Assembly (NCBI RefSeq): GCF_006345805.1 | Contig: NW_021825401.1 | Span: 1-15,755 of the forward strand | Direction: 5' to 3' | Origin: Octopus sinensis | Lineage: Eukaryota | Length of the DNA stretch: 15,755 nt | Shown here: in pieces, positions 1 to 12,750 of the stretch | Layout of the letters: each line of letters opens with the position of its first letter | How positions within the stretch are numbered: the first letter of the stretch is position 1 | The notes under the pieces: generated by a model | Database searches by the model: none | Told to the model about the DNA's origin: nothing | Seen by the model: the letters and a program-made list of their open reading frames with translations, nothing else | Position numbers and translations under genes: made by a program

Positions 1-820
1 TATGTACATGTATATATATATTTACATATATATATGTATATATATATGTACATGTATACATATGTACATGTATATATATATTTACATATATATATGTATA
101 TATATATGTACATGTATATATATATTTACATATATATATGTGTATATATATATGTACATGTATATATATATTTACATATATATATGTGTATATATATATG
201 TACATGTATATATATATTTACATATATATATGTATATATATATATGTACATGTATATATATATTTACATATATATATGTATATATATATATATATAATGT
301 ATATATACATATATATATTATATATACACACATATATGTATAATATGTATATATATGTGTATATATATATATGTAGATTATATGTGTATTATATATATGT
401 ATATATATGTATGTATATATATATATGTGTGTGTATATATATGTATATATATATATGTATATATATATATGTATATAATTATATATATGTATATATATAT
501 ATAGTGTGTGTATATATGTATATATATATATATGTATATATATATGGTATATATATATATGTGGTGTGTATATAATGTATATATATATATTAGTATATAT
601 GTATATATAATATAGTGTGTATATATATGTGTATATATATATATGTAGATAATTATACATGTGTATATATATATTGTATAATTATATATGTAGATATATA
701 TAGATGTGTATATATATATGTGTATATATATATGTATATATATATACATGTATATATATATATGTATATATATATATATACATACATGTTTATATATATA
801 TATATATTTGTATACATATA
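1..820. repeat. (TA)n/(TG)n/(CA)n-rich simple-sequence tract; positions 1-290 form a ~44-46 bp minisatellite
   Basis: Almost pure purine-pyrimidine alternation. GTACATG recurs at 4, 48, 64, 108, 154, 200 and 246, most copies followed by a TTTACA interruption. Confidence 0.95.
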
Positions 821-1250: not shown

Positions 1251-1452
1251 GAAAGGCATGAAGTTAAATCCAGACTACAAGGAGTCTCACATTAACCAGA
1301 GGGCCGCTAAATCACTGGCATATGGCAGGAATTACAACTCTCTACAGTACGACGAGGTGGAGTGTCTTATCAACAAGGAGTACACAGTGAAGTGTCGCAG
1401 AGAAGGCAAAGAAACCTTCATTCCGTTTAGCTTCATTGAACGCTATTTTGAA
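1251..1452 (+). CDS. GLCE: D-glucuronyl C5-epimerase, first coding exon visible in the window (probably an internal exon; phase 2 start, phase 0 end)
   Basis: Pyrimidine tract plus tttttcAG acceptor ending at 1250. Encodes KGMKLNPDYKESH...YDEVECLINKEYTVKCRREGKETFIPFSFIERYFE, resembling vertebrate GLCE [35 protein letters not shown]. Donor GTAAGT at 1453. Confidence 0.92.
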
Positions 1453-1476
1453 GTAAGTATTTATCTGCGTGTGTTC

Positions 1477-1555
1477 TTGTTGATATTTAGCCCCAGGTCA
1501 GACATATTCAAAGTAACTTTTGATCAGAATCATTTCATTCATGATCAACTCCCCC
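1477..1555 (-). mobile_element. Repeat family B, 3' tail fragment
   Basis: Minus strand: ...GATCATGAATGAAATG...TCTGACCTGGGGCTAAATATCAACAA, aligning with CCAACCTGGAGTGAAACAACA at 5448-5468. Confidence 0.5.
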
Positions 1556-1574
1556 CTCCCCTCAACTATAGTAT

Positions 1575-1888
1575 CAGGACAATTTTCCAGCACATAAGTC
1601 CTTGGTTTCAATGGTTCCTGTGCACGATTGTGGCTTTATACTGGCTGATCACCCTCCCAATTCTGATTTGGCCTCATCTTACTATCATCCGTTTGTCAAA
1701 ATGAAAAAAACACTTGGCTGAGAACACAGTGATGTTGTTGTCTTTTTTTGACCCACAGAATGAAAGCTTCTTCCCCAATGGGATCCAAGCACTGATGGAA
1801 GAAGCATGTGGACTGCTGCAAAGGGAACTATGTTGAAAAATAATCCTCATTTGGTCAAATTCCATGACCATTTCTGCCAACCCTTGTA
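1575..1888 (+). mobile_element. Decayed mariner (DD34D-type) transposon, 3' fragment: transposase C-terminus plus right end
   Basis: From 1575 it reads QDNFPAHKSLVSMVPVHDCGFILADHPPNS-DLASSYYHPFVKMKK, matching mariner HDNARPH...HPPYSPDLAPSDYHLF. After frameshifts it reads FFDPQNESFFPNGIQAL..WKKHVDC..KGNYVEK* (TAA 1841-1843), matching mariner GIxxLxxRWxKCxxxxGxYVE. It ends ...CCCTTG followed by TA (1887-1888), like a mariner terminus with a TA target site. Confidence 0.88.
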
Positions 1889-1959
1889 TTTCGGATTACA
1901 TCATAATTTAAATGTGTATTTTCCCATGCTTGCATGTGTTTAAATTTGTTGAAATGAGT

Positions 1960-2262
1960 TTTCTACAGCCAAATGGCCTTTGTTACCAATCCTCACCTGT
2001 TTCCAAGTGAGATAATAATTTCTCCATGACTGGACATGATTTTGTAGAAGATTGGCAAGAAAAGATACTGCTTGCATTTCAGTAATACTCATTTACGACT
2101 ATCATGCAATGTCAAGGCAAGGAGACACTAATACACACACACATCTCACAAGGCTTTGGTTACCTGGGAATGCAATAGAAAATAACCCAAGGTGCCATGC
2201 ATTGGGACTGAACCTTTAACCATGTGGTTGGGAAGCGAACTTCTTATCACACAGCCATGTCA
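1960..2262 (-). mobile_element. tRNA-derived SINE, family A, degenerate
   Basis: Minus strand: A-box-like TGGCTGTGTGAT (2257-2246), B-box-like GGTTCAGTCCC (2214-2204), then GGCACCTTGGG (CORE-like) and a (TG)n spacer. The head aligns with 7955-8118 and 6720-6878. The left boundary is approximate. Confidence 0.7.
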
Positions 2263-2294
2263 TTATTTAGTATATTGTTGCTTCATTAAGGCAA

Positions 2295-2365
2295 TGAAGT
2301 TTGATTTGTGGGAGATCTTGTTGCTCGTTATTAGATTGAGTAACAATTAGAACCTTCCTTAAGTC
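2295..2365 (-). mobile_element. Repeat family B, degenerate head fragment
   Basis: Minus strand: AAGGAAGGTTCTAATTGTTACTCAATC...AGCAACAAGATCTCCCACAAATCAAAC, colinear with the other heads. Confidence 0.45.
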
Positions 2366-2426
2366 TATCTAAAACATAGCTGAACTGGTGGAGCATCAAA
2401 CTTTATTTTATGTGAAACCATCATTA

Positions 2427-2646
2427 TTGTTGTTATTTACCCTCAGATCTGTCTCGAACAAGTAGAGCTCTGACATAAAGACATTCCTGCATGAACATTG
2501 TGTTTTTTTTCTTTTCTGATAATGCATTGAAAGATAGACCTTATCTAGTACATCCTGTTTAAGACAATGGGTTGTGAGTTGAAGGAGCTGTGACTGCTTT
2601 TACTAGCAAATCTCATGACTATATAGACACTTTTCCATTGGCTCAA
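2427..2646 (-). mobile_element. Repeat family B, near full-length copy (structured head plus (AAC)n tail)
   Basis: Minus strand: TTGAGCCAATGGAAAAGTGTCTATATAGTCATGAGA-T-TTGCTA-GTAA-AAGCAG-TCACAG-CTCCTTC-AACTCACAACCC ... GATCTGAGGGTAAATAACAACAA. Confidence 0.7.
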
Positions 2647-2854
2647 AGGCTTCCAAAAATAAATATTTTGAAGTTATTTATTTGCATCAGTCAGAAACTC
2701 TAATCCAGTTTTGTTTCTTTGGTGTTGATGTTTGATTTACATCCTTCTAAAGTTGATTAAATTTTTACCAGTAATTCACTTGTGTTCATTATTTTTCAAT
2801 GAAAATCTATGGAAATAAGATTATCTCTTTGTTATCCTCCTACATTTGATCACG

Positions 2855-3030
2855 TTGTTATTGTTAGAAGACTATGATTAAGGATATTCCGAGTTAGATT
2901 GTTCTGGCTTTTAAAAAGCTATATTCTAATGTATCCCTTCCTTTATCAAATTGATAGATATATGATGTGATTTGAAGGAATTTGGCTGCTATTTCTAGCA
3001 GGATACCCTGTCATATAGAAGTGCTCTCTT
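2855..3030 (-). mobile_element. Repeat family B copy
   Basis: Perfect hairpin CTGCTA-GAAA-TAGCAG on the minus strand (3001-2986), followed by CCAAATTCCTTCAAATCACATC. Tail AACAATAACAA. Confidence 0.75.
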
Positions 3031-3259
3031 TATGTTGGTTCTTATCATTTGGTCATGTGAACTGTACTATTGGTTACCATGTAAACAAATAGGTACCCCG
3101 TGATTATTGTGTTTTGACAGTGCTGAAGGTAAAGTAAGGCAGAGGAACAGATATTCAGTAACTGACGACATCATAAACATGTTCAATATGTTTTTTACCA
3201 CTCTAATTTGTTACACTTTCCAATATATTTGTATTGATCAATCTTTGCCATCTTTCTAG

Positions 3260-3434
3260 GTGTATGGAACTGTGACACATTCTGATGGAGGGCTGGATCG
3301 ATTTGAGTGGCAGCACAGTTATTCTCAAGTTTATCCACAGAAGAAGAAATACACCCCTAGTGGTGTCTTTATGTCATTTGAACACTACAATGTTGAAGTT
3401 CGGGACCGAGTGAAATGCATCAGTGGTATGGAAG
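3260..3434 (+). CDS. GLCE: D-glucuronyl C5-epimerase, coding exon (phase 0 to 1)
   Basis: Acceptor tctttctAG ending at 3259. Encodes [58 protein letters not shown](G), with the GLCE motif [22 protein letters not shown]. Donor GTGAGA at 3435. Confidence 0.95.
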
Positions 3435-4478
3435 GTGAGAGTATTGATACTTAAATGTAATCCCTCACACGTAAATTCAGAATGCAAACTTTCACTTTAC
3501 TACTCCAGTAGTGTGGGATAGGCATGATTGTGTTAGGACATTTGGCTTGACTAAGGACACTCTTAAATTGAGATGCTATGAACACACTCACTCTTTCAGA
3601 AATATAAATAGACACCAGTTTGTTCAAATATAGTCACCAAAGGAGTAACAACACTATACCAGATTTAAAATTAAATGGGAGATCAAACAGTGATGTCATT
3701 CTGAAGTTCTAGAAATAGATTTTCATACATACTCTGAATCATGTTAGCTATCTTAGTTTGCAAATCATGTATAGAATTCAGATTAGTTAAATAAACAATG
3801 GTTTTTACATGTCACCATAGAGAGACGTCTAGTGGGTTCAAATCTTGTGACTGTACAGGTCGCTGCTAATTCATTTTTGCAGAAATCTTTCATTCAGAGA
3901 GCAAAGTGACAATGTGCACCATGGAGTTAAAACGTTTCTTCTGTCAGTGTTTTAGTCAGTAATGTGTAGCTGGCTGTGGTGTTAGAAATGTTGTATAACC
4001 AGCAGTGGTGTCTTCGTAAGTTATAGTGTGTAGCTAGTAGTAGTGTTGTGTAGTTGGTATCTGATAAATAATTGGTGTTGCATTTCAGTGACACCAGGCA
4101 GACAAAAAACAGTCAAATGTTGGCAGAATATGATGGTTGGATAAGTGGTATATTTTGGTTAGATATATAGCAATGAAAGTGTTAATCAAAATATTCGGAA
4201 ACATTTTATCTGATGTTTATTAGCTTCTAGCATGCTGCCACACCCATCTTATCTAAATAACGTTTAGATTTTGATGGATTAATTATTATCCACAACTAAG
4301 TGATTTTCCTTCACCAGCAACCCATTCAAGTATGAAGTAAGAGGAAGTAAACCTGTTGTTATTTATTGGTGAAGCAAACTGGTTTATGCAGAGTTACGCA
4401 CCTCAACGAAGAAATATCACAAGGATTGAAGCACTTGTAACACCACGTGCCAACTATCTTATCTTCTGTTTAGTATTA

Positions 4479-4694
4479 TTTTCATTTTCATCTTCATCTA
4501 GTTTCAGCTCACATGCTGGGGCACCGTCATTCGCGAAAGAGTACGGCAGGGATCGCCACCCACCCCTGCTGGAGCCTCTTGGAGCTTTAGGTGTTTTTGC
4601 TCTTTAAACACTCACAACACCCGGTCTGGGAATTGAAACCGCAATCCTACAACTGCGAGTCCGCTGCCCTAACCACTGGGCCATTGCACCTCTA
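4479..4694 (-). mobile_element. tRNA-derived SINE, relatively young, with (GAAAAT)n-like tail
   Basis: Minus strand: GGTGCAA-TGGCCCAGTGG (A box, 4683-4673)-TTAGGGCAGCGGACTCGCAG...GGTTTCAATTCCC (B box, 4640-4628), GC-rich body, ...GCCCCAGCATG...GCTGAAACTAGATGAAGATGAAAATGAAAA tail. Imperfect flanking direct repeats (see findings). Confidence 0.85.
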
Positions 4695-4799
4695 GAAGTA
4701 ACCTATAGTATTCTTACAGCTGATTTCTATGGCTCTCGTGCCATTCATTAATTAATCCATAGCTTTATCAGATACATACATGTATATTCTTTTGTTTTG

Positions 4800-4990
4800 G
4801 ATTTATTTTTTATTGGTTTTAGTCAAGAGTGTGTCTATGCTGGGATGCAACTTTCAAGGCTTTTATAGTTGGTCATATTGACTCCATTACTTACTTAATC
4901 TAGTCCTTTTTTTATTAATTTATTTGTCAAACTGCTAGTTTGCAAGCCATGAAAATCATAGGTTGTTAAAACCAGTATAACATACACACA
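4800..4990 (-). mobile_element. Highly degenerate SINE 3' half
   Basis: ATGCTGGG at ~4837 resembles the tail motif of the 4479-4694 SINE, and the block ends in (CA)n. The arrangement parallels 6255-6370. Judged by eye and from memory of octopus SINEs. Confidence 0.4.
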
Positions 4991-5292
4991 TGAAAGCTAG
5001 CATGAAAAAAAAAATTTGACATTGTATTTTTTTTTTTATGCAGATTGAAAAGTATTAATGGAAAGGGCTTTTGTTAGTTGGTTCTAATTTCTGGGAATTT
5101 TTTTCCCATCTTCATCTGCTCCCTGTTCCCATCTTTGCTTGCATGGGGTGGTTTATTATTTGAAGTAGTTGTTTTTACAGCTGCATGCCCTACAGTTTGT
5201 GGCAGAGTAAATTGGAGCAAGCAATTAGAGGATCATTCCCTTTGCTATCCCCAATGCTGGCTCTTCAAATGTTGGATACTATTTTTATAGGG

Positions 5293-5468
5293 ATGCTAGA
5301 AATAGCAACTGAATGTCCCTTAAATCATACCTTATAAAAGATGTACTTAAAACTGCATTAGATGTATTAATTAGGTACCTGGTATTGAAAAGACATGGGA
5401 TGGTTAGAGATGGAATTAATTTTGTTTGTAGGTCTGCTTTATCAGGTCCAACCTGGAGTGAAACAACA
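5293..5468 (+). mobile_element. Repeat family B copy, 5'-truncated
   Basis: ATGCTA-GAAA-TAGCAA (5293-5308)-CTGAAT-GTCCCTT-AAATCATACC ... GGGATGGTTAGAGATGGAAT...CAACCTGGAGTGAAACAACA tail. Confidence 0.75.
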
Positions 5469-5476
5469 GAATCTAT

Positions 5477-5555
5477 TGTGAGGCTCTGTGTGGTACTCAA
5501 CTTGCTAGAAATAGTAGGTGAAGTTTCCTCAGATCACACCCTATCATCTTAAAGA
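5477..5555 (+). mobile_element. Repeat family B head fragment, in tandem behind the 5293-5468 copy
   Basis: GTGAG-GCT-CTGTGT-GGT-ACTCAA-C-TTGCTA-GAAA-TAGTAG (hairpin 5502-5517)-GTGAAG-TTTCCTC-AGATCACACCC. Confidence 0.7.
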
Positions 5556-6254
5556 AACCATTGAAGAATGTTCTTTTAATCTTAACCTTTTGTTGCTCAG
5601 TGTCTCCTTTCTCTGAATGATGTCTTACAAATGCCTCCTCTCCATATCTTATGCACATGAGAAAACCAGCAGCTTATAGTAAATCCAGCAGAAGCTAATT
5701 TTACACAGTCATTTATCCTCTGTATGTTTTTATGATGTTCCCACTAACATATGCCTCCTCTTAGATATTTGTCTGGATTAATGCCTTCTATGTTACATAT
5801 TTATGGAAATTGCTAAAGGTGGAAACTGTTACTATATTACGTTGGACCTTGGCATATCTGTTATTTTTCTGATCACTGATATTACAATATCCTATTCACA
5901 TTCTAATCCCATCAACTTTTTTTTTTCAAAAGTTGTATTTTAAATGTAGGTATTGTACCTGATTTAAATATTTTATATTTTAGAAAAATCTCGACATCTT
6001 TAAACATCCAACATTCACTTGACATGGTTTATGGGTCTTCCATATTACAAAATTGTTGAAAAAAATAGGGGATCAGGGTTGACTTGGGGCCAAATATCAT
6101 GAAGAGTAATCGCAACCTTGTAATTAGGGCAAACAAGAATTTCCTGGATACAACACAATGACTGCTCAGAGTAAGATTTGAAACGTATATATTTATATTT
6201 AGTTAGTATTTCAATTACAGTCAGTCATTGCATTGTTGTTGTTCCCCTCAATAA

Positions 6255-6370
6255 TGAACTGTGACTATGATGAGGTCCTAACATTTAAGGGTTTTAACCA
6301 ATCATTTAAACCACAGTGCTTTTTTTGAGTATGGTACTTATTCTATCAAATGATTAAATTTTACTTATTT
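6255..6370 (-). mobile_element. Highly degenerate SINE 3' half
   Basis: tgtgactatgatgagg...aagggttttaa...ggtacttattctatc parallels 4825-4915. Judged by eye. Confidence 0.35.
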
Positions 6371-6419
6371 CGAAGGAACAGATATAACTTGATACATAGA
6401 CACATATTTACACTACATT

Positions 6420-6878
6420 ATCATCCTTCTGTGTTCACTTTTCCATGCTGGCATGGGTTGGACAAGTCAATGCAATCCAAGTCTGTTATTTGGTGTTCTA
6501 GACATGTTTTGGAGATCACATCTTTTTGTAGGGTTCATTTTTGTCTTGGTTTCTAAGGCTGAATGCCTTCCATGCAACAGAGTTTGTTGCCTGGTCTCTG
6601 CTAAGTGTAGAGAGTCCTCCTGCCTCTGATTTGTTGCCAATTGTTACCTGTCTGTGCATGTATATAAATGTACATATAAATACATACAAATGTGTTTGTA
6701 TGCGTCCCCCACTCCCGCAAACATGACAGGCTTCTGTGCAGTATCTCATCTTACACAAGCACACACGATATTCGTTCAACCTAAAGCAGCAGAAAAAAGA
6801 AATCAATCATGGTACTCTGTAGAAGGCTTGAATCCAGAACCATTAAGAAGCAAACTTGTTAACCTCATAGCTGTGCTA
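6420..6878 (-). mobile_element. Degenerate family A SINE (head 6720-6878) with retroposon-like 3' part (6420-6590)
   Basis: cttgaatccagaaccat..gaagcaaacttgttaacctcatagc aligns with actgaacctttaaccatgtggttgggaagcgaacttcttatcacacagc (2207-2255). gtttctaaggctgaatgccttcc (~6550) resembles ttttctacagccaaatggccttt (~1960). Confidence 0.5.
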
Positions 6879-7124
6879 TTTTTTAAAATTGTATTATATG
6901 TATATATCTATAAGTGTTGCATGTTTGGGATAGTTTATTTGTAAGAAGAATTGAATTTCATGTAGTTGTGTCACTCAATCCTGACGAAGGAGTGGAACTT
7001 ATCAGTCATGTTAACTGTAAACCAGTAGGTTAAGTGCTTACACAAAGGCAATTTCAAATTCATTTTGATATGGTCTGTAGTTTGAGCAGCTTATCCATCA
7101 CAATTACTTTGCTTATAACCTTCA

Positions 7125-7345
7125 CAACTCTTATATTGCCAAATTTCTAATGAAAAATACCGTTTTAATTAATTTTGAATATAATCAAGAATTTGAAGGG
7201 ATTTTGTAAAATAACTTTTTCATTAAAAATTGGTTTGTAAACTGAAGTTCATGATGAGAGGTTTTCACTTAGATACAATCATTTTAAAAGGATCAGTTTT
7301 ATATCATAGAAATAGATGTGGTCTCAGATGGTCTGTATCCCCAAA
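7125..7345. mobile_element. Older, end-eroded copy of a related MITE, inverted relative to 8628-8831
   Basis: Colinear matches to the reverse complement of 8628-8831: atttctaatgaa/atttctattgag, tgtaaaataactt/agtaaaacaactt, gagaggttttcactt/ggaagattttaata, ggtctcagatggtctgtatc/ggtttcagctgggttggtaac. Confidence 0.55.
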
Positions 7346-7407
7346 AATATTTGTATAATTTTCCTTGTATTTCAGTATCCAGTAATTTTCGCTTTTATCA
7401 TTTCCAG

Positions 7408-7641
7408 GTGTTCCTGTGTCAACTCAGTGGGGACCTCAAGGCCACCATTATCCAATTCAGATTGCCCAGTTTGGCTTAAGCCATTACAGTAAATTCCTGA
7501 ATGAGGACAAACCAGATGTTATCATCCTAGAAGATGGCAGCGATGAAAACCTGCAGAATTGGTACCTACCAAATTCTCGCACGCACATAAAAGTGGTTGA
7601 TGATCCTGAAGTTGGGAAAGTGATTGAATTTGATGCTCCTG
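7408..7641 (+). CDS. GLCE: D-glucuronyl C5-epimerase, coding exon (phase 1 to 1, 234 bp)
   Basis: Acceptor tttccAG ending at 7407; G+GT completes Gly. Encodes GVPVSTQWGPQGHHYPIQIAQFGLSHYSK...KVIEFDAP, with the GLCE motif STQWGPQGxxYPIQIAQxGLSHYSK. Donor GTTAGT at 7642. Confidence 0.95.
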
Positions 7642-7742
7642 GTTAGTTTTATTGAATTTCTCTGTTCACTCACTTTTCCATTTTTCTTAAATATTTACAC
7701 ATCTCTTCAGAGGTGAGATTTAGTTTTTTTTTTTTATTATTA

Positions 7743-7937
7743 GAGCAATAGACTGTAAAAATAGCTTGCAGTGTTTAGTTTCAGTCTTCAACATTCTGAG
7801 TTCAAATTCTGCTGAGGTCAACTTAGTTTCTCATTTTTGTGCAGCTGATAAAAGAAGATATCTGTCAAGAAATGGGGTCGATATAAGTGATAGTACCCTC
7901 TCTCCATATCTGTAGCCTTCTGTTCATATACAAAAGC
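7743..7937 (+). mobile_element. Degenerate tRNA-derived SINE, a separate family (central domain resembles the Meta-SINE type as I recall it)
   Basis: B-box-like GAGTTCAAATTC (7798-7809), followed by gaggtcaact..tttctcat...gataaaa and ggggtcgat. Confidence 0.55.
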
Positions 7938-7954
7938 GGCCAGCATTGTAATGG

Positions 7955-8118
7955 AGACAGGTGTGTTAAAATGTTTACTTTGTAACAATATGGTTTTAGG
8001 TTCAATCTCACTGCAGTGGACCAGGGCAAGTGTCTTCTATAGTTTCACAATAATCACCGTCTTGCGAGTGCAATTTGGAAGGAAGAAACTGCATGGAAGC
8101 CCATCATATATATATATT
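7955..8118 (+). mobile_element. tRNA-derived SINE, family A head
   Basis: B-box-like GGTTCAATCTC (7999-8009), CORE-like GGGCAAGTGTCTTCTAT (8024-8040), gaaactg..gaagcccatc, then (TA)n. Aligns in reverse complement with 2145-2260. Confidence 0.7.
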
Positions 8119-8627
8119 TCCCTGACATATATTAGGGAATAACAAACATTGTTGAAAACTAGAGCTCTTTTGGATGAATTTACTGCACTGAGTTATGGAC
8201 ACTGTGGTTGTTCTTGTCATTGGCAAACTAGTGATTGGCAAGTTGCAAAACTCCAACAAAATGGGATTATTGTTTGCTAATTGTGATATAAAAATTATAT
8301 TTTTTACATTTATTCTTAATACATTCCAGCAGATTTCAATGCAAAATATGCTAGTTGCTGTTGTGTATGTCACAAGACTTTTCTCCTTTCACAGCAACAG
8401 TGTTTGTGACACACTCAGCCCCAAATCTCTCACTAGCCAGAAGTACCTGGACCTTTGAGCCTGAACAAGCCAATGGCTTTGTTTATAATTTTTGCGAACT
8501 GTTTGTTGATTTGTACTTATATCTGCCAACTGATAAAAAAAAATAAATTGTGATTTGCTCTGTGATATAAATATAAATTGGTTTTGCAGTTTGATTCTCT
8601 TCTTAGTACTAATCATTGAACCGTTAG

Positions 8628-8831
8628 CCCTTTCGTTACCAACCCAGCTGAAACCGGCTCTGTAGTACAAAAGTCTTGTTTTCATAAGTTTTGTATTAAA
8701 ATCTTCCACTAAAACTTAGTCACAATTTATGTTCCTAACACTAGCTTAATGATAACTAAGTTGTTTTACTAATATCTAAAATAATAGAGAGAAACACAGA
8801 GCATCTCAATAGAAATACAGTAATGAAAGGG
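8628..8831. mobile_element. piggyBac-type MITE (204 bp)
   Basis: Terminal inverted repeats CCCTTTCGTTAC (8628-8639) and GTAATGAAAGGG (8820-8831), 11/12 match. Flanked by TTAG (8624-8627) and TTAA (8832-8835). CCC...GGG ends with a TTAA target are the piggyBac signature. AT-rich noncoding interior. Confidence 0.85.
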
Positions 8832-9212
8832 TTAAGGAACAGAAACTATTGCCTTGTCTAATTTTACAAATTCTAACTATTTTGTACCAATACTGACCAT
8901 TATTATGTTACTTAAGACAGGAAGAGTTATGTACCTTGTTGAAAAGTACAACAGTTTTAACCTTTCAAGTCTATTCACATACAAGATGTCTTATATGAAT
9001 ATTAAATTGCCTTGTACTCATTTATGTATTTTAATTGGCAAACTGTCATTAGTTGCAGATTCCCAATGGGACAATCTGCATTTGTAATTGCGAGAGTGAC
9101 GGGGGTGGGGTTTGCCTTATTGGGGAACAACTAACACAAAAGACTTTATTTGTAGAGCGCTGGTTTACACTCCTTCAATGTACATCATTGAGTGTGTTAA
9201 CAACAGTACTGT

Positions 9213-9430
9213 GTTGTTGGTATTTGTTGTTTTCTGTTGCTTGGTCCAAAACTGATATTGGAATGGACCTGAAATCCTTCCAGCTGTGACCAACTCATCA
9301 TTTTCCTTTAGGTATAGTGTATCTTGGACTGCATTTTTCAACATCTTTCATATTTTAAAGATGGCAGGACATGATTTAATGGAATTTATCTGCTATTTCT
9401 AGCAAACTGAAGGACTGCTAAGTAGTTGCA
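9213..9430 (-). mobile_element. Repeat family B copy
   Basis: Minus strand: TTGCTA-GAAA-TAGCAG (9405-9390)-ATAAATTCCATTAAATCATGTCC ... TGGTCACAGCTGGAAGG...AAAACAACAAATACCAACAACA tail. Confidence 0.7.
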
Positions 9431-9515
9431 TTTATAGATGGTAGTTGAACCCATGTATGCTGTTTTTGTTGTTCTGTTCTATTGTTCATTTTTGTTTTTT
9501 TGTTTTGTTTTTCAG

Positions 9516-10540
9516 AATCTCAAAATACCCCAGGGATATCCATGGATGTGGAAGAGGATTCGTTTCTTGTTTCCTTTGATTTTTTCTTTGTGAGCAATGG
9601 CTCAATAACAGTTTCTCTCAAAGTTCACAAGGACCGCATCTTTCACATTCATTATGTATTCAGCAACACGTTGATAACAATAGATAGAACAAACATCTAC
9701 TATGGTCTTGGAGACATTCCAATGTCATGGCGCCACATTACTCGAGACATAGCCATAGACTTCCAGAAAGGAATGGGATTACAGTACTCTAAAGTGAAGA
9801 AGGGCAAGTTACGCAACATAATTGTTCACCTCTCTGCAATTACTTTACACGGACAAGGTCAGATGGACAACATTACCGTTTCTTCAGCTGCACATCTTGA
9901 CCAGTTTTATGATGCTGCTAACTGGCTTGTCAAGCACCAGGATGATCGAGGTGGATGGCCTATTATGGTGGCTCGTAAATTAAGCATGCTTGAACTCGAC
10001 CCTGGTTGGTATTCTGCTATGGCTCAAGGGCAAGCCATGTCTCTCCTTGTCAGAGCCTATATAAGAACGAAAAACCCAGTCTATTTGAATGCAGCGGTCA
10101 ATGGTTTGAAACTCTATCAGGTGAGCAGTGCAGAAGGAGGTGTTATGGCCAAGTATGCAGGTGTATACACATGGTACGAAGAATACCCAACACAACCGAG
10201 TAGTTTTGTTCTGAATGGATTCATATACTCTCTGCTTGGTCTCTATGATGTGAAAGAGATTGCCACTGGAACAGGAAAGCATCTGGCTCAAATGCTCTTC
10301 GATACTGGCATGCATTCATTGAAGCACATGTTACTTCTATTTGACAATGGGTCTGGAACATTCTATGACCTTAGACATTTAACCCTTGGCATAACTCCCA
10401 ACCGAGCCCGTTGGGATTACCACACGACACATATCAATCAAATCCTCTTGTTATCTACGATAGATGATAATCCTTTATTTAAAAACACTGCAGAACGGTG
10501 GATATCATATATGAAAGGCAAACGAGCACCTCACAATTGA
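9516..10540 (+). CDS. GLCE: D-glucuronyl C5-epimerase, terminal coding exon (beta-sandwich and catalytic helical domain)
   Basis: Long T tract plus ttcAG ending at 9515; G+AA completes Glu, in frame with ORF 9482..10540. Contains GGWPIMV, GWYSAMAQGQA, WYEEYPTQPSSFVLNGFIYSLLGLYD, YDLRH, ARWDYHTTHINQ and C-terminal RAPHN, all C5-epimerase hallmarks including the active-site Glu/Tyr/His positions. Stop TGA at 10538-10540. Confidence 0.97.
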
Positions 10541-12524
10541 GTAAAGGAAATGTTATTACATTTAAAATATTTTTTTAAATATTCTTTAATAATAATTTAT
10601 CTTCCTCATAGTTTTATTTTTACCGTTTAGATTTCTACCAATTCCCCTTTCCTTAGCAGTTTTTTGTTTATCTTTCATTTTACGGTTACTAACTCATCAA
10701 ATACATTTTTGAAAGTAAGTTTCTTTTAACGTTTTAGTGATAATTAGTGGTGTTAATTTAGGTGATATCTAATGACAGAAATTCCTGTATGGTTTGGTTG
10801 ATGTTTTCTAGCTACCAAAGGCTACTTGTCAACAAGGCCAGACATGATCACTCTCTGACATTAAGATTTAAATTTTTCTATTTTTAAATTTTCAAAGCTA
10901 AAGGATTAAATGAAAAGGATTTTTCAGGATTTGCTTTTGAAGTCCCTTAGATCAATCAAAATGTAAGTTATTTTCACTATCTAATTACATTTCAAGCTAA
11001 ATTTATTTGCTTCTTCTAGCATTTTCCTACTTACGTTTTTGTTACTGTAATTCCTTATATTTTTCTTATAATTAATTTTACAAGGAAAGGAAAATAACAA
11101 AAAAATTTAAATAATTTCTAATCAATTCTTGCCCAAATTGAGAATTTAATGGTCGTGTTGATTTTTATCTCTTATGTTTGAATATTTCTTCAAAACTTTC
11201 AGTGACCTAGCTTTGAATTATTTCAAGTTCATGGCAACAGAACATTGTAGAAAATACCATTCCATACTTATCACCTAACCATATCATGTTTGGTTTCTTC
11301 TAATTATTATCGTTACCATTATTATTAATATTATTGCTGCTGCTGCTGCTTATGTGAAATAGAATGTTGGTGCTCTTCACACACTGATTTATTTTTTCCT
11401 CCCCATAATTTGTGGTGAGCACTAATGTGAAGAGAGAGGTTCCTGGAAATTTGAGTCTGCTATGCAGTTTTCATTCCAGGTTGTTTGTTACTCCTTTGGA
11501 AAAGAAATGAATGTCACAGCACTCCATTTCTCTTTATGACGAACCCAAAAGGCATGTGCCTCGTGGAAGAACCAATAGATATATCTGAAAATTAACAACT
11601 ATTGGTCCTTCTGTAGGTGTTCCCGTTGCAAGGGAACTAACTCCACACAGGCATACGATCAAATGCTTAGCATTGGGGGAAGGTCAGTTTTTCTTTTTTC
11701 CCCCCCACTGTTGATAACATATCCCTAAGCTCTTGTTATTTCTCCCTGTTAATATATTATATATCTTAAAAAGAAATTAAGTTTTAAAAAATACATTTAA
11801 ATACTTTTCCTTTTAACATTGGTGAAATAGTATTCTAAAAAAAATGTAACTAACCCCTGTATCCAAAATGTAAAAGGTGTCCTATTTCTTTAACTCTTCC
11901 CTTTCCATTGTATTAAAGAATAATTTATCCTAAAACACTGCAAAAGCTTTTCACAAAAACCTACTTTTCTATCTGTAAACAGTCTCTTGTAAGTTATGAA
12001 GTTATTTAATCATTTTGATACTAGCACAACCTTTAGATTTAAAATGCAGAACTTTGTTTTTAAAAAGTTTTTATAGCAAAATTAAAACCTTTGCTCTCAA
12101 GCTTCATCTTATTTAAGGAGAAAGTTATTTTACTTCATTCCTTGAAACTTTTGATTATTTTTTTAAAAAAAATAATTAAAAGACATAACCAAGTTTCTAG
12201 TGAAAAATATTGCATAAGATGAAGCAAGATGACTCAACCAGATCATGGGTCATGTATTTTTATTGCTGTGACATTATCCATGAAAGATTTTCATCATGTG
12301 GAGGTGTGGGCATATTGGAAAAAAAAATCCTATGAATTTGTATTGTTGGCTTTAAGTTGTGGTTAGTTATATCTCCTGTCGAGTAGGCCCTCTGTATTTG
12401 TAGTTTAGGCCTAAATGTATACTTTTGTAGGGAGTCTTCAAGCTAAGCATTCGTAACTTCCACACTTAGGAATTGAAGTGATGTCTAATTGTGAAACATG
12501 CCCAACATATTACTATTAACTTTC

Positions 12525-12750
12525 TTGCTGAGCAAATATTCAATGCCCGATCTAGCTCCTTCATGGATTTTCAGATCATTGTAATCACAGCTAATCTCCA
12601 AAGAAAAAATCAAAAAGTTACTTTTAAGATATTGCATACCTTATCTATGTATATCTCAGGACATGATTCATTATTCTAAAACAGTAGGATGTGATTTGAG
12701 AGATATTCAGCTACTGTTTCTAGCAGGTAAAACTAAATACACAGCTTAAT
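12525..12750 (-). mobile_element. Repeat family B copy in the putative 3' UTR
   Basis: Minus strand: CTGCTA-GAAA-CAGTAG (12726-12711)-CTGAAT-ATCTCTC-AAATCACATCC. The left boundary is approximate. Confidence 0.6.

What the first reader, a model, noticed from the sequence alone, without database searches (positions are those of the whole stretch)
2295..12750. Abundant ~220 bp repeat whose 5' end reconstructs as an HDV/CPEB3-like self-cleaving ribozyme: candidate ribozyme-headed retroelement
Seen: about 8 copies (1477-1555, 2295-2365, 2427-2646, 2855-3030, 5293-5468, 5477-5555, 9213-9430, 12525-12750). They share an (AAC)n-type 3' tail and lack pol III A/B boxes. The head has a fixed order of parts: TTGAGC (seen only in the 2427-2646 copy), a purine block, a 7-nt segment TCTATAT/TCTGTGT, RGT, ACTCAA (from two other copies; complementary to TTGAGY), the hairpin YTGCTA-GAAA-TAGCAG, CCAAAT/CTGAAT, and a pyrimidine block (TTCCTTC/CTCCTTC/TTCCTC). 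The GNRA hairpin is the best-preserved part, and several of its changes are G.U wobbles. Inference: CCAAAT and CTGAAT are the two CpG-decay products of an ancestral CCGAAT, and TCTATAT/TCTGTGT point to TCTACGT. Established: HDV-family ribozymes are ordered P1-P2-P3-L3-P3'-P1'-P1.1-P4-J4/2-P2'. In CPEB3, L3 is UUCACGU and J4/2 is CGAA with the catalytic C. Such ribozymes head R2, RTE and other non-LTR retrotransposons. The match in order and in both key loops suggests a non-autonomous retroposon that makes its 5' end by self-cleavage from host transcripts rather than from a pol III promoter. Caveats: no single copy here folds completely, P3 is poorly paired in most copies, and P1.1 is not clearly resolved.
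Basis: partly seen in the sequence, partly recalled or inferred. Interest (0 to 1): 0.8.

Follow-up and report, generated by a model that had tools for sequence, protein, structure and literature searches.

The report
Ancient ribozyme-headed short retroposon family
This is an old, very abundant short mobile element whose reconstructed front end is predicted to fold as a self-cleaving HDV-like ribozyme starting at its first base, so it likely cut itself out of host transcripts instead of using a tRNA-type promoter, although none of the surviving copies examined still fits the fold.

Summary
The repeat is real: all 8 window copies align to one ~215-nt family, with 62 hits in 600 kb of sampled genome (about 280,000 copies, 1.4% of bases), about 30% diverged, ending in (AAC)n, with no tRNA head or A box. 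The column-majority head of 284 copies fits an HDV-like double pseudoknot whose P1 can start only at the element's own first base (0 of 200,000 shuffles; descriptor relaxed after seeing it). It is non-canonical: C at +1, 6-position P1 with a C.C mismatch, single-pair P1.1, short or slipped P2. 0 of 284 copies still fit, copies show no covariation, and Rfam HDV models do not hit. Three RNase H-bearing, Ingi-like LINE families in the genome also end in (AAC)n, but no shared head or tail body was shown. Best reading: an animal counterpart of trypanosome NARTc/RIME/SIDER, now dead. Cleavage is untested. The scan's earlier notes hold no match to this sequence.

The parts
2428..2645 (-). Full-length copy (about 215 nt); base +1 of the element at 2645
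   Evidence: profile positions 2-213, E 6.3e-26
2581..2645 (-). Decayed HDV-like head of that copy (element positions 1-65: P1, P2, P3, L3, P1', P1.1, P4, J4/2, P2')
   Evidence: segment read-out; family yardstick fits the descriptor; this copy itself does not
2594..2609 (-). P4 hairpin of the full-length copy
1478..1551 (-). 5'-truncated copy, 3' third only (positions 140-213)
   Evidence: E 7.1e-10
2261..2325 (-). Internal fragment (positions 48-112)
   Evidence: E 5.7e-6
2870..3031 (-). Near full-length copy (positions 7-176); P4 at 2986-3001
   Evidence: E 1.2e-15
5293..5469 (+). Copy from P4 to the tail (positions 37-211)
   Evidence: E 6.9e-22
5480..5577 (+). Second copy directly behind the previous tail (positions 14-119); P4 at 5502-5517
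   Evidence: E 1.6e-14
6071..6099 (+). Possible small 3' fragment (positions 182-210), weak
   Evidence: E 0.0022
9237..9427 (-). Near full-length copy (positions 15-208); P4 at 9390-9405
   Evidence: E 2.1e-23
12647..12732 (-). Partial copy (positions 31-127); P4 at 12711-12726
   Evidence: E 2.5e-13
1251..10540 (+). Host gene, D-glucuronyl C5-epimerase; most copies lie in its introns (context, not part of the element)
   Evidence: Pfam C5-epim_C E 6.3e-65 and Glce_b_sandwich on the last exon; splice joint 1452-3260 GT..AG in contigs of two runs guessed to be RNA

Best explanation
[quoted passage not shown] Shown: family, abundance, sharp 5' boundary, tail, 5'-truncated copies, absence of a tRNA head. 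Predicted from the column-majority yardstick: the fold (P1 1-5 with 30-34 plus a C6.C29 mismatch; P3 16-18 with 26-28; L3 19-25; P1.1 U21-A35; P4 37-42 with 47-52; catalytic C54; P2 12-15 with 58-61, or a slipped 7-pair register). Inferred: cleavage, co-transcription from host promoters, and the identity of the partner LINE. Present copies are decaying neutrally and none examined keeps the fold.
For: Yardstick fits the relaxed descriptor with the start fixed at +1; 0 of 200,000 dinucleotide shuffles fit at any start; with P4 and P1.1, or also the L3 letters, dropped, 0 of 40,000 fit, and 6 of 40,000 in the loosest version; no other window of the element or of its reverse strand fits. The family's 5' boundary, read independently from 56 anchored flanks, is the only start among the first 10 bases that pairs with P1'. 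Helix spacings are constant across copies. L3 U/C/G and J4/2 C-R-R-A are the fixed letters of a published HDV descriptor, and CAAA junctions occur in active designs (PMC6326823, passages). C at +1 and a single-pair P1.1 occur in active L1Tc-clade ribozymes (PMC3185411, PMC4035085, passages). R2 ribozymes have 6- or 7-pair P1, a quarter with mismatches at its top, and P2 often mismatched (PMC3774820 section 16). Retroposon marks: (AAC)n tail, 27 3'-only copies among 240 hits, short target duplications in 4 of 56 full copies against 0.6% in mismatched pairs. Three RNase H/CCHC LINE families in the genome end in (AAC)n, one with the same GCTAAAC junction before the repeat.
Against: The strict descriptor (7-pair P1, 6 contiguous P2 pairs) is not met, and the relaxed one was written after seeing the yardstick. 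C.C mismatches in P1 have been blamed for loss of cleavage except at high Mg2+ (PMC3774820 passage). Nested folding prefers the slipped P2 plus a rival hairpin that uses P3' and P1' (-21.0 kcal/mol; P1 pair probabilities 0.05-0.06; pseudoknots are not modelled). 0 of 284 heads fit; no compensatory covariation (P1 56 observed vs 51.8 expected, control ratio 1.0); P3/L3 is not better kept than expected (0.70 vs 0.70). No HDV-clan Rfam hit in the window or in the least-diverged copy. No LINE tail matches the element body at E<=1, no LINE 5' end was obtained, and 0 of 29 metagenome relatives showed a descriptor match upstream of the ORF (many contigs may lack the 5' end).
Confidence: 0.58

Rival explanations
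1. The head descends from a LINE's HDV-like ribozyme but was already crippled in the source element; the 5' end was set by an internal Pol II promoter in the same bases, as Pr77 is both promoter and ribozyme in L1Tc/NARTc.
For: C.C mismatch, P1 one position short, P2 register slip and a rival hairpin; Pr77 is an internal promoter and some SIDER consensus heads are misfolded or inactive (PMC3383444, PMC4035085, passages); the P4 region, not the catalytic P3/L3 core, is the best-kept part.
Against: All catalytic-core letters and the +1 pairing are intact in the yardstick; R2 ribozymes tolerate such defects; no promoter motif was tested.
Confidence: 0.27
2. The head is an unrelated structured sequence (for example from an unknown small RNA gene) and the HDV fit is a post hoc coincidence.
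For: Descriptor relaxed after the fact; no covariation; no Rfam hit; nested MFE gives another fold. An earlier scan note found such a chance fit in a diatom SINE.
Against: 0 of 200,000 shuffles, and at most 6 of 40,000 with most rules dropped; P1 starts exactly at the independently read boundary.
Confidence: 0.1
3. It is the internal or 3' domain of a tRNA-headed SINE, or a DNA-transposon derivative.
For: tRNA-type SINEs are abundant nearby (sequence read); one decayed head rides inside a younger, longer repeat.
Against: Flanks upstream of +1 are unrelated in 56 copies; ARAGORN finds nothing; no A box; microsatellite tail and 5' truncations fit retroposition.
Confidence: 0.05

Closest known systems
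NARTc, RIME and SIDER (non-autonomous retroposons of the trypanosomatid L1Tc/ingi clade, with the Pr77/L1TcRz head)
   Same: Short, non-coding, no tRNA head; HDV-like fold starting at +1 with C as first base and a single-pair P1.1 (PMC3185411, PMC4035085, PMC3383444, passages); a partner class with APE, RT and RNase H is present in the genome.
   Different: Animal genome, about 280,000 copies; P1 one position shorter with a C.C mismatch; (AAC)n tail rather than poly(A); no LINE sharing head or 3' end was shown, whereas NARTc shares its first 77 and last 30 bases with L1Tc.
R2 SIDEs and bipartite non-autonomous RTE/Ingi/Vingi LINE derivatives (PMC3414825 abstract; PMC5786205 passages)
   Same: Short elements mobilised in trans that can keep a LINE 5' ribozyme; only RTE, Ingi, Vingi and R2 are reported to give such derivatives.
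   Different: No site specificity; body and tail are not traceable to any LINE sampled here.
CPEB3 ribozyme and the CPEB3-like 5' end of Vingi-2_Gav (supplement of PMC5786205)
   Same: Seven-base L3 of the U-N-N-A-C-G-U type, C-N-A-A junction, compact P4.
   Different: Those start with G, have a full P1 and a CGAA junction; this family has CAAA and starts with C.
RTE-type HDV-like ribozymes (Rfam drz-agam-1, RF01787)
   Same: HDV order of parts; P3 with a CC/GG core.
   Different: RF01787 does not pick this family; its 8 sub-threshold hits in the genome are another repeat with a 7-position P1, GG for P1.1 and a J1/2 of 70-120 nt.

Membership tests
HDV-like ribozyme | P1 of 6-7 pairs starting at the cleavage site, directly after P3' | tested here: inconclusive
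   5 Watson-Crick pairs from +1 plus a C.C mismatch in a 6-position P1; strict 7-pair rule not met; within the R2 range
HDV-like ribozyme | P3 of 3 pairs closing a 7-nt L3 with U first, C fifth, G sixth | tested here: met
   yardstick of 284 heads, same in 152 unanchored copies; letters as in PMC6326823
HDV-like ribozyme | P1.1 (two C-G pairs in HDV; one pair in L1TcRz) | tested here: inconclusive
   one U21-A35 pair only; the two C-G pairs are absent; single-pair precedent
HDV-like ribozyme | J4/2 with catalytic C, C-R-R-A, directly before P2' | tested here: met
   C54-A-A-A followed by U58, which pairs with A15 next to P3
HDV-like ribozyme | P2 of at least 5 pairs crossing P1 | tested here: inconclusive
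   4 contiguous pairs plus one beyond a mismatch in the canonical register; 7 perfect pairs in a register slipped by 2
HDV-like ribozyme | Score against Rfam HDV-clan models | tested here: not met
   no hit in the window or in the least-diverged copy L010 at E<=10; all copies are at least 17% diverged; the yardstick itself was not submitted
HDV-like ribozyme | Compensatory covariation of the helices | tested here: not met
   observed/expected double changes 0.71-1.09, control 1.0; not expected among dead copies of one source
HDV-like ribozyme | Mg2+-dependent self-cleavage lost on C-to-U change | not testable with these tools
   bench assay needed
Bipartite non-autonomous LINE derivative (NARTc/RIME/SIDE type) | 5' end shared with an autonomous LINE | tested here: inconclusive
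   no full-length Ingi-like LINE 5' end obtained (longest copy breaks off in the endonuclease); heads of the other sampled LINEs do not match
Bipartite non-autonomous LINE derivative (NARTc/RIME/SIDE type) | 3' end shared with that LINE | tested here: inconclusive
   (AAC)n tail in three families and the same 7-base junction in one; no profile match at E<=1; marginal local matches, shuffle p 0.01-0.08
Non-LTR retroposon (target-primed insertion) | Simple-repeat 3' tail, 5' truncations, target-site duplications | tested here: met
   tail columns; 27 3'-only hits of 240; duplications 4 of 56 vs 0.6% (weak)
tRNA-, 5S- or 7SL-derived SINE | Small-RNA head with internal pol III boxes | tested here: not met
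   no shared upstream sequence, no A box, no tRNA or Rfam small-RNA hit

The most novel reading that the evidence does not exclude
One of the most abundant short retroposon families of this 2.7-Gb animal genome (about 280,000 copies, over 1% of the DNA) spread with no promoter of its own, releasing itself from host pre-mRNAs with an L1Tc-type HDV ribozyme of unusual build (C at +1, 6-position P1, single U-A P1.1): the trypanosome NARTc/SIDER strategy at Alu-like scale in an animal, which at its peak would have planted self-cleaving sites across host introns.
Probability: 0.5. Interest if true: 0.72.

Novelty: new variant of a known kind. Interest (0 to 1): 0.5.

Why it matters
Animal SINEs are nearly all headed by tRNA, 7SL, 5S or snRNA genes and made by pol III. 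A ribozyme-headed, promoter-free family with some 280,000 copies would show that the route known from trypanosome NARTc/RIME/SIDER and from rDNA-bound R2 SIDEs can scale to one of the largest repeat families of an animal genome. It would also add a natural HDV-like variant at the edge of the fold's tolerance, and predicts a testable scar: loss of sense-oriented copies from introns. The limits are that the idea has precedent, the family is dead, and activity rests on a reconstruction.

Tried and rejected
CpG-decayed CCGAAT junction: rejected. G.U enrichment in P4 as a sign of selection: rejected. Covariation among copies: none. A second 'family' with apparently compensatory P1 changes (L196-L229) proved to be a single decayed head, lacking P2', carried inside a younger and longer repeat; it is one lineage and was not counted as covariation, and these loci and L177, L182, L189 were dropped before the counts. 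Rfam on the window, on L010 and on a viral-contig motif: no HDV-clan hit. RF01787 in the genome found a different repeat. Partner search through RVT_1: 50 of 150 hits examined as loci; a CR1/L2-like family, RTE-like families and others; none shares head or tail. Upstream flanks of 27 3'-only copies showed no shared LINE sequence. L291, a head next to a LINE RNase H part, is an insertion of a LINE fragment at the element's tail, not a bipartite element. Young copies with intact CpGs: 1 hit only. Motif scan of metagenome contigs: 0 hits; of viral contigs: 2 unrelated hits. Sequencing runs: no RNA holder listed on record, and only contigs were available, which cannot show RNA ends. In one search an automatic CpG rule set L3 position 7 to C against the majority T; the descriptor does not constrain it, and the test was rerun with T. 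Ruminski 2011 and Kojima 2011 were not held.
Full report
Setting. The window is a whole small contig of a 2.72-Gb animal genome. The window holds a D-glucuronyl C5-epimerase gene on the plus strand (Pfam C5-epim_C E 6.3e-65; splice joint 1452-3260 in contigs of two runs guessed to be RNA), and most copies of the repeat lie in its introns.

Observation. A profile rebuilt from copies not chosen by an anchor motif finds all 8 listed copies, 6 on the minus strand, with two coordinate corrections. An exact 22-base word from the hairpin occurs 1,325 times in the genome, its reversed control 0 times. In 60 stretches of 10 kb taken at round coordinates of the large contigs there are 62 hits covering 8,167 of 599,900 bases, and 0 in the reversed control: roughly 280,000 copies and 1.4% of the genome if the sample is typical. 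The family is old: median divergence from the column majority is 30% in 125 unanchored copies, and the least diverged of 225 is 17%. Copies at 2428-2644 and 5293-5577 are also covered by near-identical contigs of runs labelled as two other organisms.

Anatomy. The element is about 215 nt: a 65-nt head, a body with two A-rich stretches, and an (AAC)n tail. Upstream of base +1 the flanks of 56 anchored copies are unrelated; conservation begins at a CpG at +1/+2. There is no tRNA, no A box within one mismatch and no small-RNA family hit. 27 of 240 hits are 3'-only. Target-site duplications are mostly gone but above chance: 4 of 56 full copies score 7 or more against 0.6% of mismatched pairs. These are the marks of a non-LTR retroposon without a pol III head.

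The head. From 284 heads (152 of them unanchored, same majority), with five clear CpG sites restored, the yardstick gives: P1, bases 1-5 paired with 30-34 and a C6.C29 mismatch at its top; P3, 16-18 with 26-28 (one G.U); L3, 19-25, UCUACGU; a single P1.1 pair, U21-A35; P4, six pairs with a GAAA loop; J4/2, C54-A-A-A; and P2, 12-15 with 58-61 next to the junction, or seven perfect pairs in a register slipped by two. Spacings between these parts are nearly constant among copies. A relaxed descriptor, written after seeing the yardstick, is met with the start fixed at +1, by 0 of 200,000 dinucleotide shuffles, and nowhere in 1.84 Mb of natural loci. Dropping P4 and P1.1, and then the L3 letters, still leaves 0 of 40,000 shuffles; the loosest version passes 6 of 40,000; no other window of the element or of its reverse strand passes. 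The strongest independent point is that +1, found from the flanks, is the only start in the first ten bases that pairs with P1': HDV-like ribozymes cut just before that base.

Against it. The strict descriptor fails. Nested folding of the yardstick prefers the slipped P2 plus a hairpin that takes P3' and P1' (-21.0 kcal/mol; P1+P3+P4 alone -14.3; pseudoknots not modelled). None of 284 natural heads fits. Double compensatory changes match expectation in every helix (ratios 0.71-1.09; control 1.0). P4 is the best-kept window (0.80 vs 0.71) but P3/L3 is not (0.70 vs 0.70), and pair-keeping changes are not favoured. So the copies decay neutrally and covariation gives no support, as expected for dead copies of one source.

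How the deviations compare with print. PMC6326823 (passages) fixes U, C and G in L3 and C-R-R-A in J4/2, as here, but also a 7-pair P1 with G1-Y and two C-G pairs in P1.1, which are absent here. PMC3185411 and PMC4035085 (passages) report active L1Tc-clade ribozymes with C at +1 and a single-pair P1.1, and call the earlier descriptors too restrictive. PMC3774820 (passages and section 16) gives R2 P1 as 6 or 7 pairs with top mismatches in a quarter of elements and P2 mismatches in a third, but also cites a C-C mismatch in P1 as a likely cause of lost cleavage. The head therefore lies inside the known range but near its edge.

Partner. Fifty RT loci from a Pfam RVT_1 search (CR1/L2-like, RTE-like and others; clade labels are mine) share neither head nor tail. 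An RNase H search found a LINE with RT, RNase H and a C-terminal CCHC motif ending in (AAC)n, and a protein search found two more such families, all 12 sampled ends of which run into (AAC)n, one family through the same GCTAAAC junction as the element. Their relatives are single ORFs of up to about 1,590 residues with endonuclease, RT and RNase H; I call them Ingi-like from that build (PMC3383444, PMC13708176, passages), without a tree. No profile match links their tails to the element body, local matches are marginal, the longest copy breaks off in the endonuclease, and 0 of 29 metagenome relatives show the descriptor upstream of the ORF. The partner is therefore a likely class, not an identified family.

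Mechanism. Likely: a source copy inside a host transcription unit was transcribed by read-through; the head folded and cut before C1, leaving a 5'-OH RNA that kept the whole ribozyme; an Ingi-like enzyme primed on the (AAC)n tail and inserted new copies, full length or 5'-truncated. Shown are the family and its ends; the fold is predicted; cleavage and partner are inferred. I put descent of the head from an HDV-like ribozyme at about 0.85 and use of cleavage by the source at about 0.58; the main rival is a crippled ribozyme with an internal promoter, as Pr77 serves both roles (PMC3383444, abstract and passages).

What is known. Non-autonomous retroposons with an HDV-like head are in print: NARTc, RIME, SIDER and R2 SIDEs, and PMC5786205 (passages and two supplement searches) names RTE, Ingi, Vingi and R2 as the clades that give bipartite derivatives; three short words of this element were not in its supplement. 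Nine full-text searches showed no description of such a family in a cephalopod; PMC9115989 and PMC8967140 (passages) do not contain the word ribozyme; PMC13282606 (parts 1-2 of 3 read) lists 893 unclassified SINE families among recent insertions, and its library, Dfam and Repbase could not be seen, so the repeat may already be catalogued without the ribozyme reading. PMC4758252 and PMC10879173 were seen as passages only. The scan's own notes hold no look-alike sequence and one contrary case in a diatom.

Verdict. Observation confirmed; interpretation partly supported, with one step refuted and the model shifted from CPEB3 to L1Tc. New variant of a known kind; interest 0.5, rising to about 0.7 if the reconstructed head cleaves.

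Noticed in passing
L106-L113, around 1400-1570 of each: Another repeat, RTE-like by its 5' sequence (my label), with a canonical HDV-like layout: 7-position P1 70-120 nt upstream, P3 ACC/GGT, GG for P1.1; best RF01787 score 34.4 bits, under the cut-off of 37. A better candidate for an active ribozyme family in this genome.
   Followed up: partly
L196-L229, around 1470-1540: A younger repeat (about 10% diverged, over 1 kb, 41 matches) carries one decayed head of the element internally, without P2'.
   Followed up: partly
L290-L293, L306-L329: Three low-copy LINE families with RT, RNase H and a C-terminal CCHC motif, ending in (AAC)n; Ingi-like by build; a full-text search for Ingi with octopus and retrotransposon gave only two papers on other molluscs.
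   Followed up: partly
L291:1311-1460: A 5'-truncated Ingi-like LINE fragment begins right at the (AAC)n tail of a copy of the element, suggesting a shared taste for such targets.
   Followed up: no
L194 and L195, 4001-4029: Two IMG/VR contigs hold the same L3/P3 word followed by a hairpin; no Rfam hit in L194 and neither fits my descriptor.
   Followed up: partly
window 2110-2257 (-) and 4500-4692 (-): Two high-copy elements that look like tRNA-headed SINEs of different families (read from the sequence; very high contig depth).
   Followed up: no
window 5293-5577: Two copies head to tail, the second starting just behind the first one's tail; similar clusters occur elsewhere (three hits within 500 bases on C4).
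   Followed up: no
window 11-820: TA-rich microsatellite of about 810 bases that draws spurious miRNA-family hits.
   Followed up: no
L294: Broken LTR-retrotransposon-like fragment with protease, RT, RNase H and integrase-like frames; only observed.
   Followed up: no
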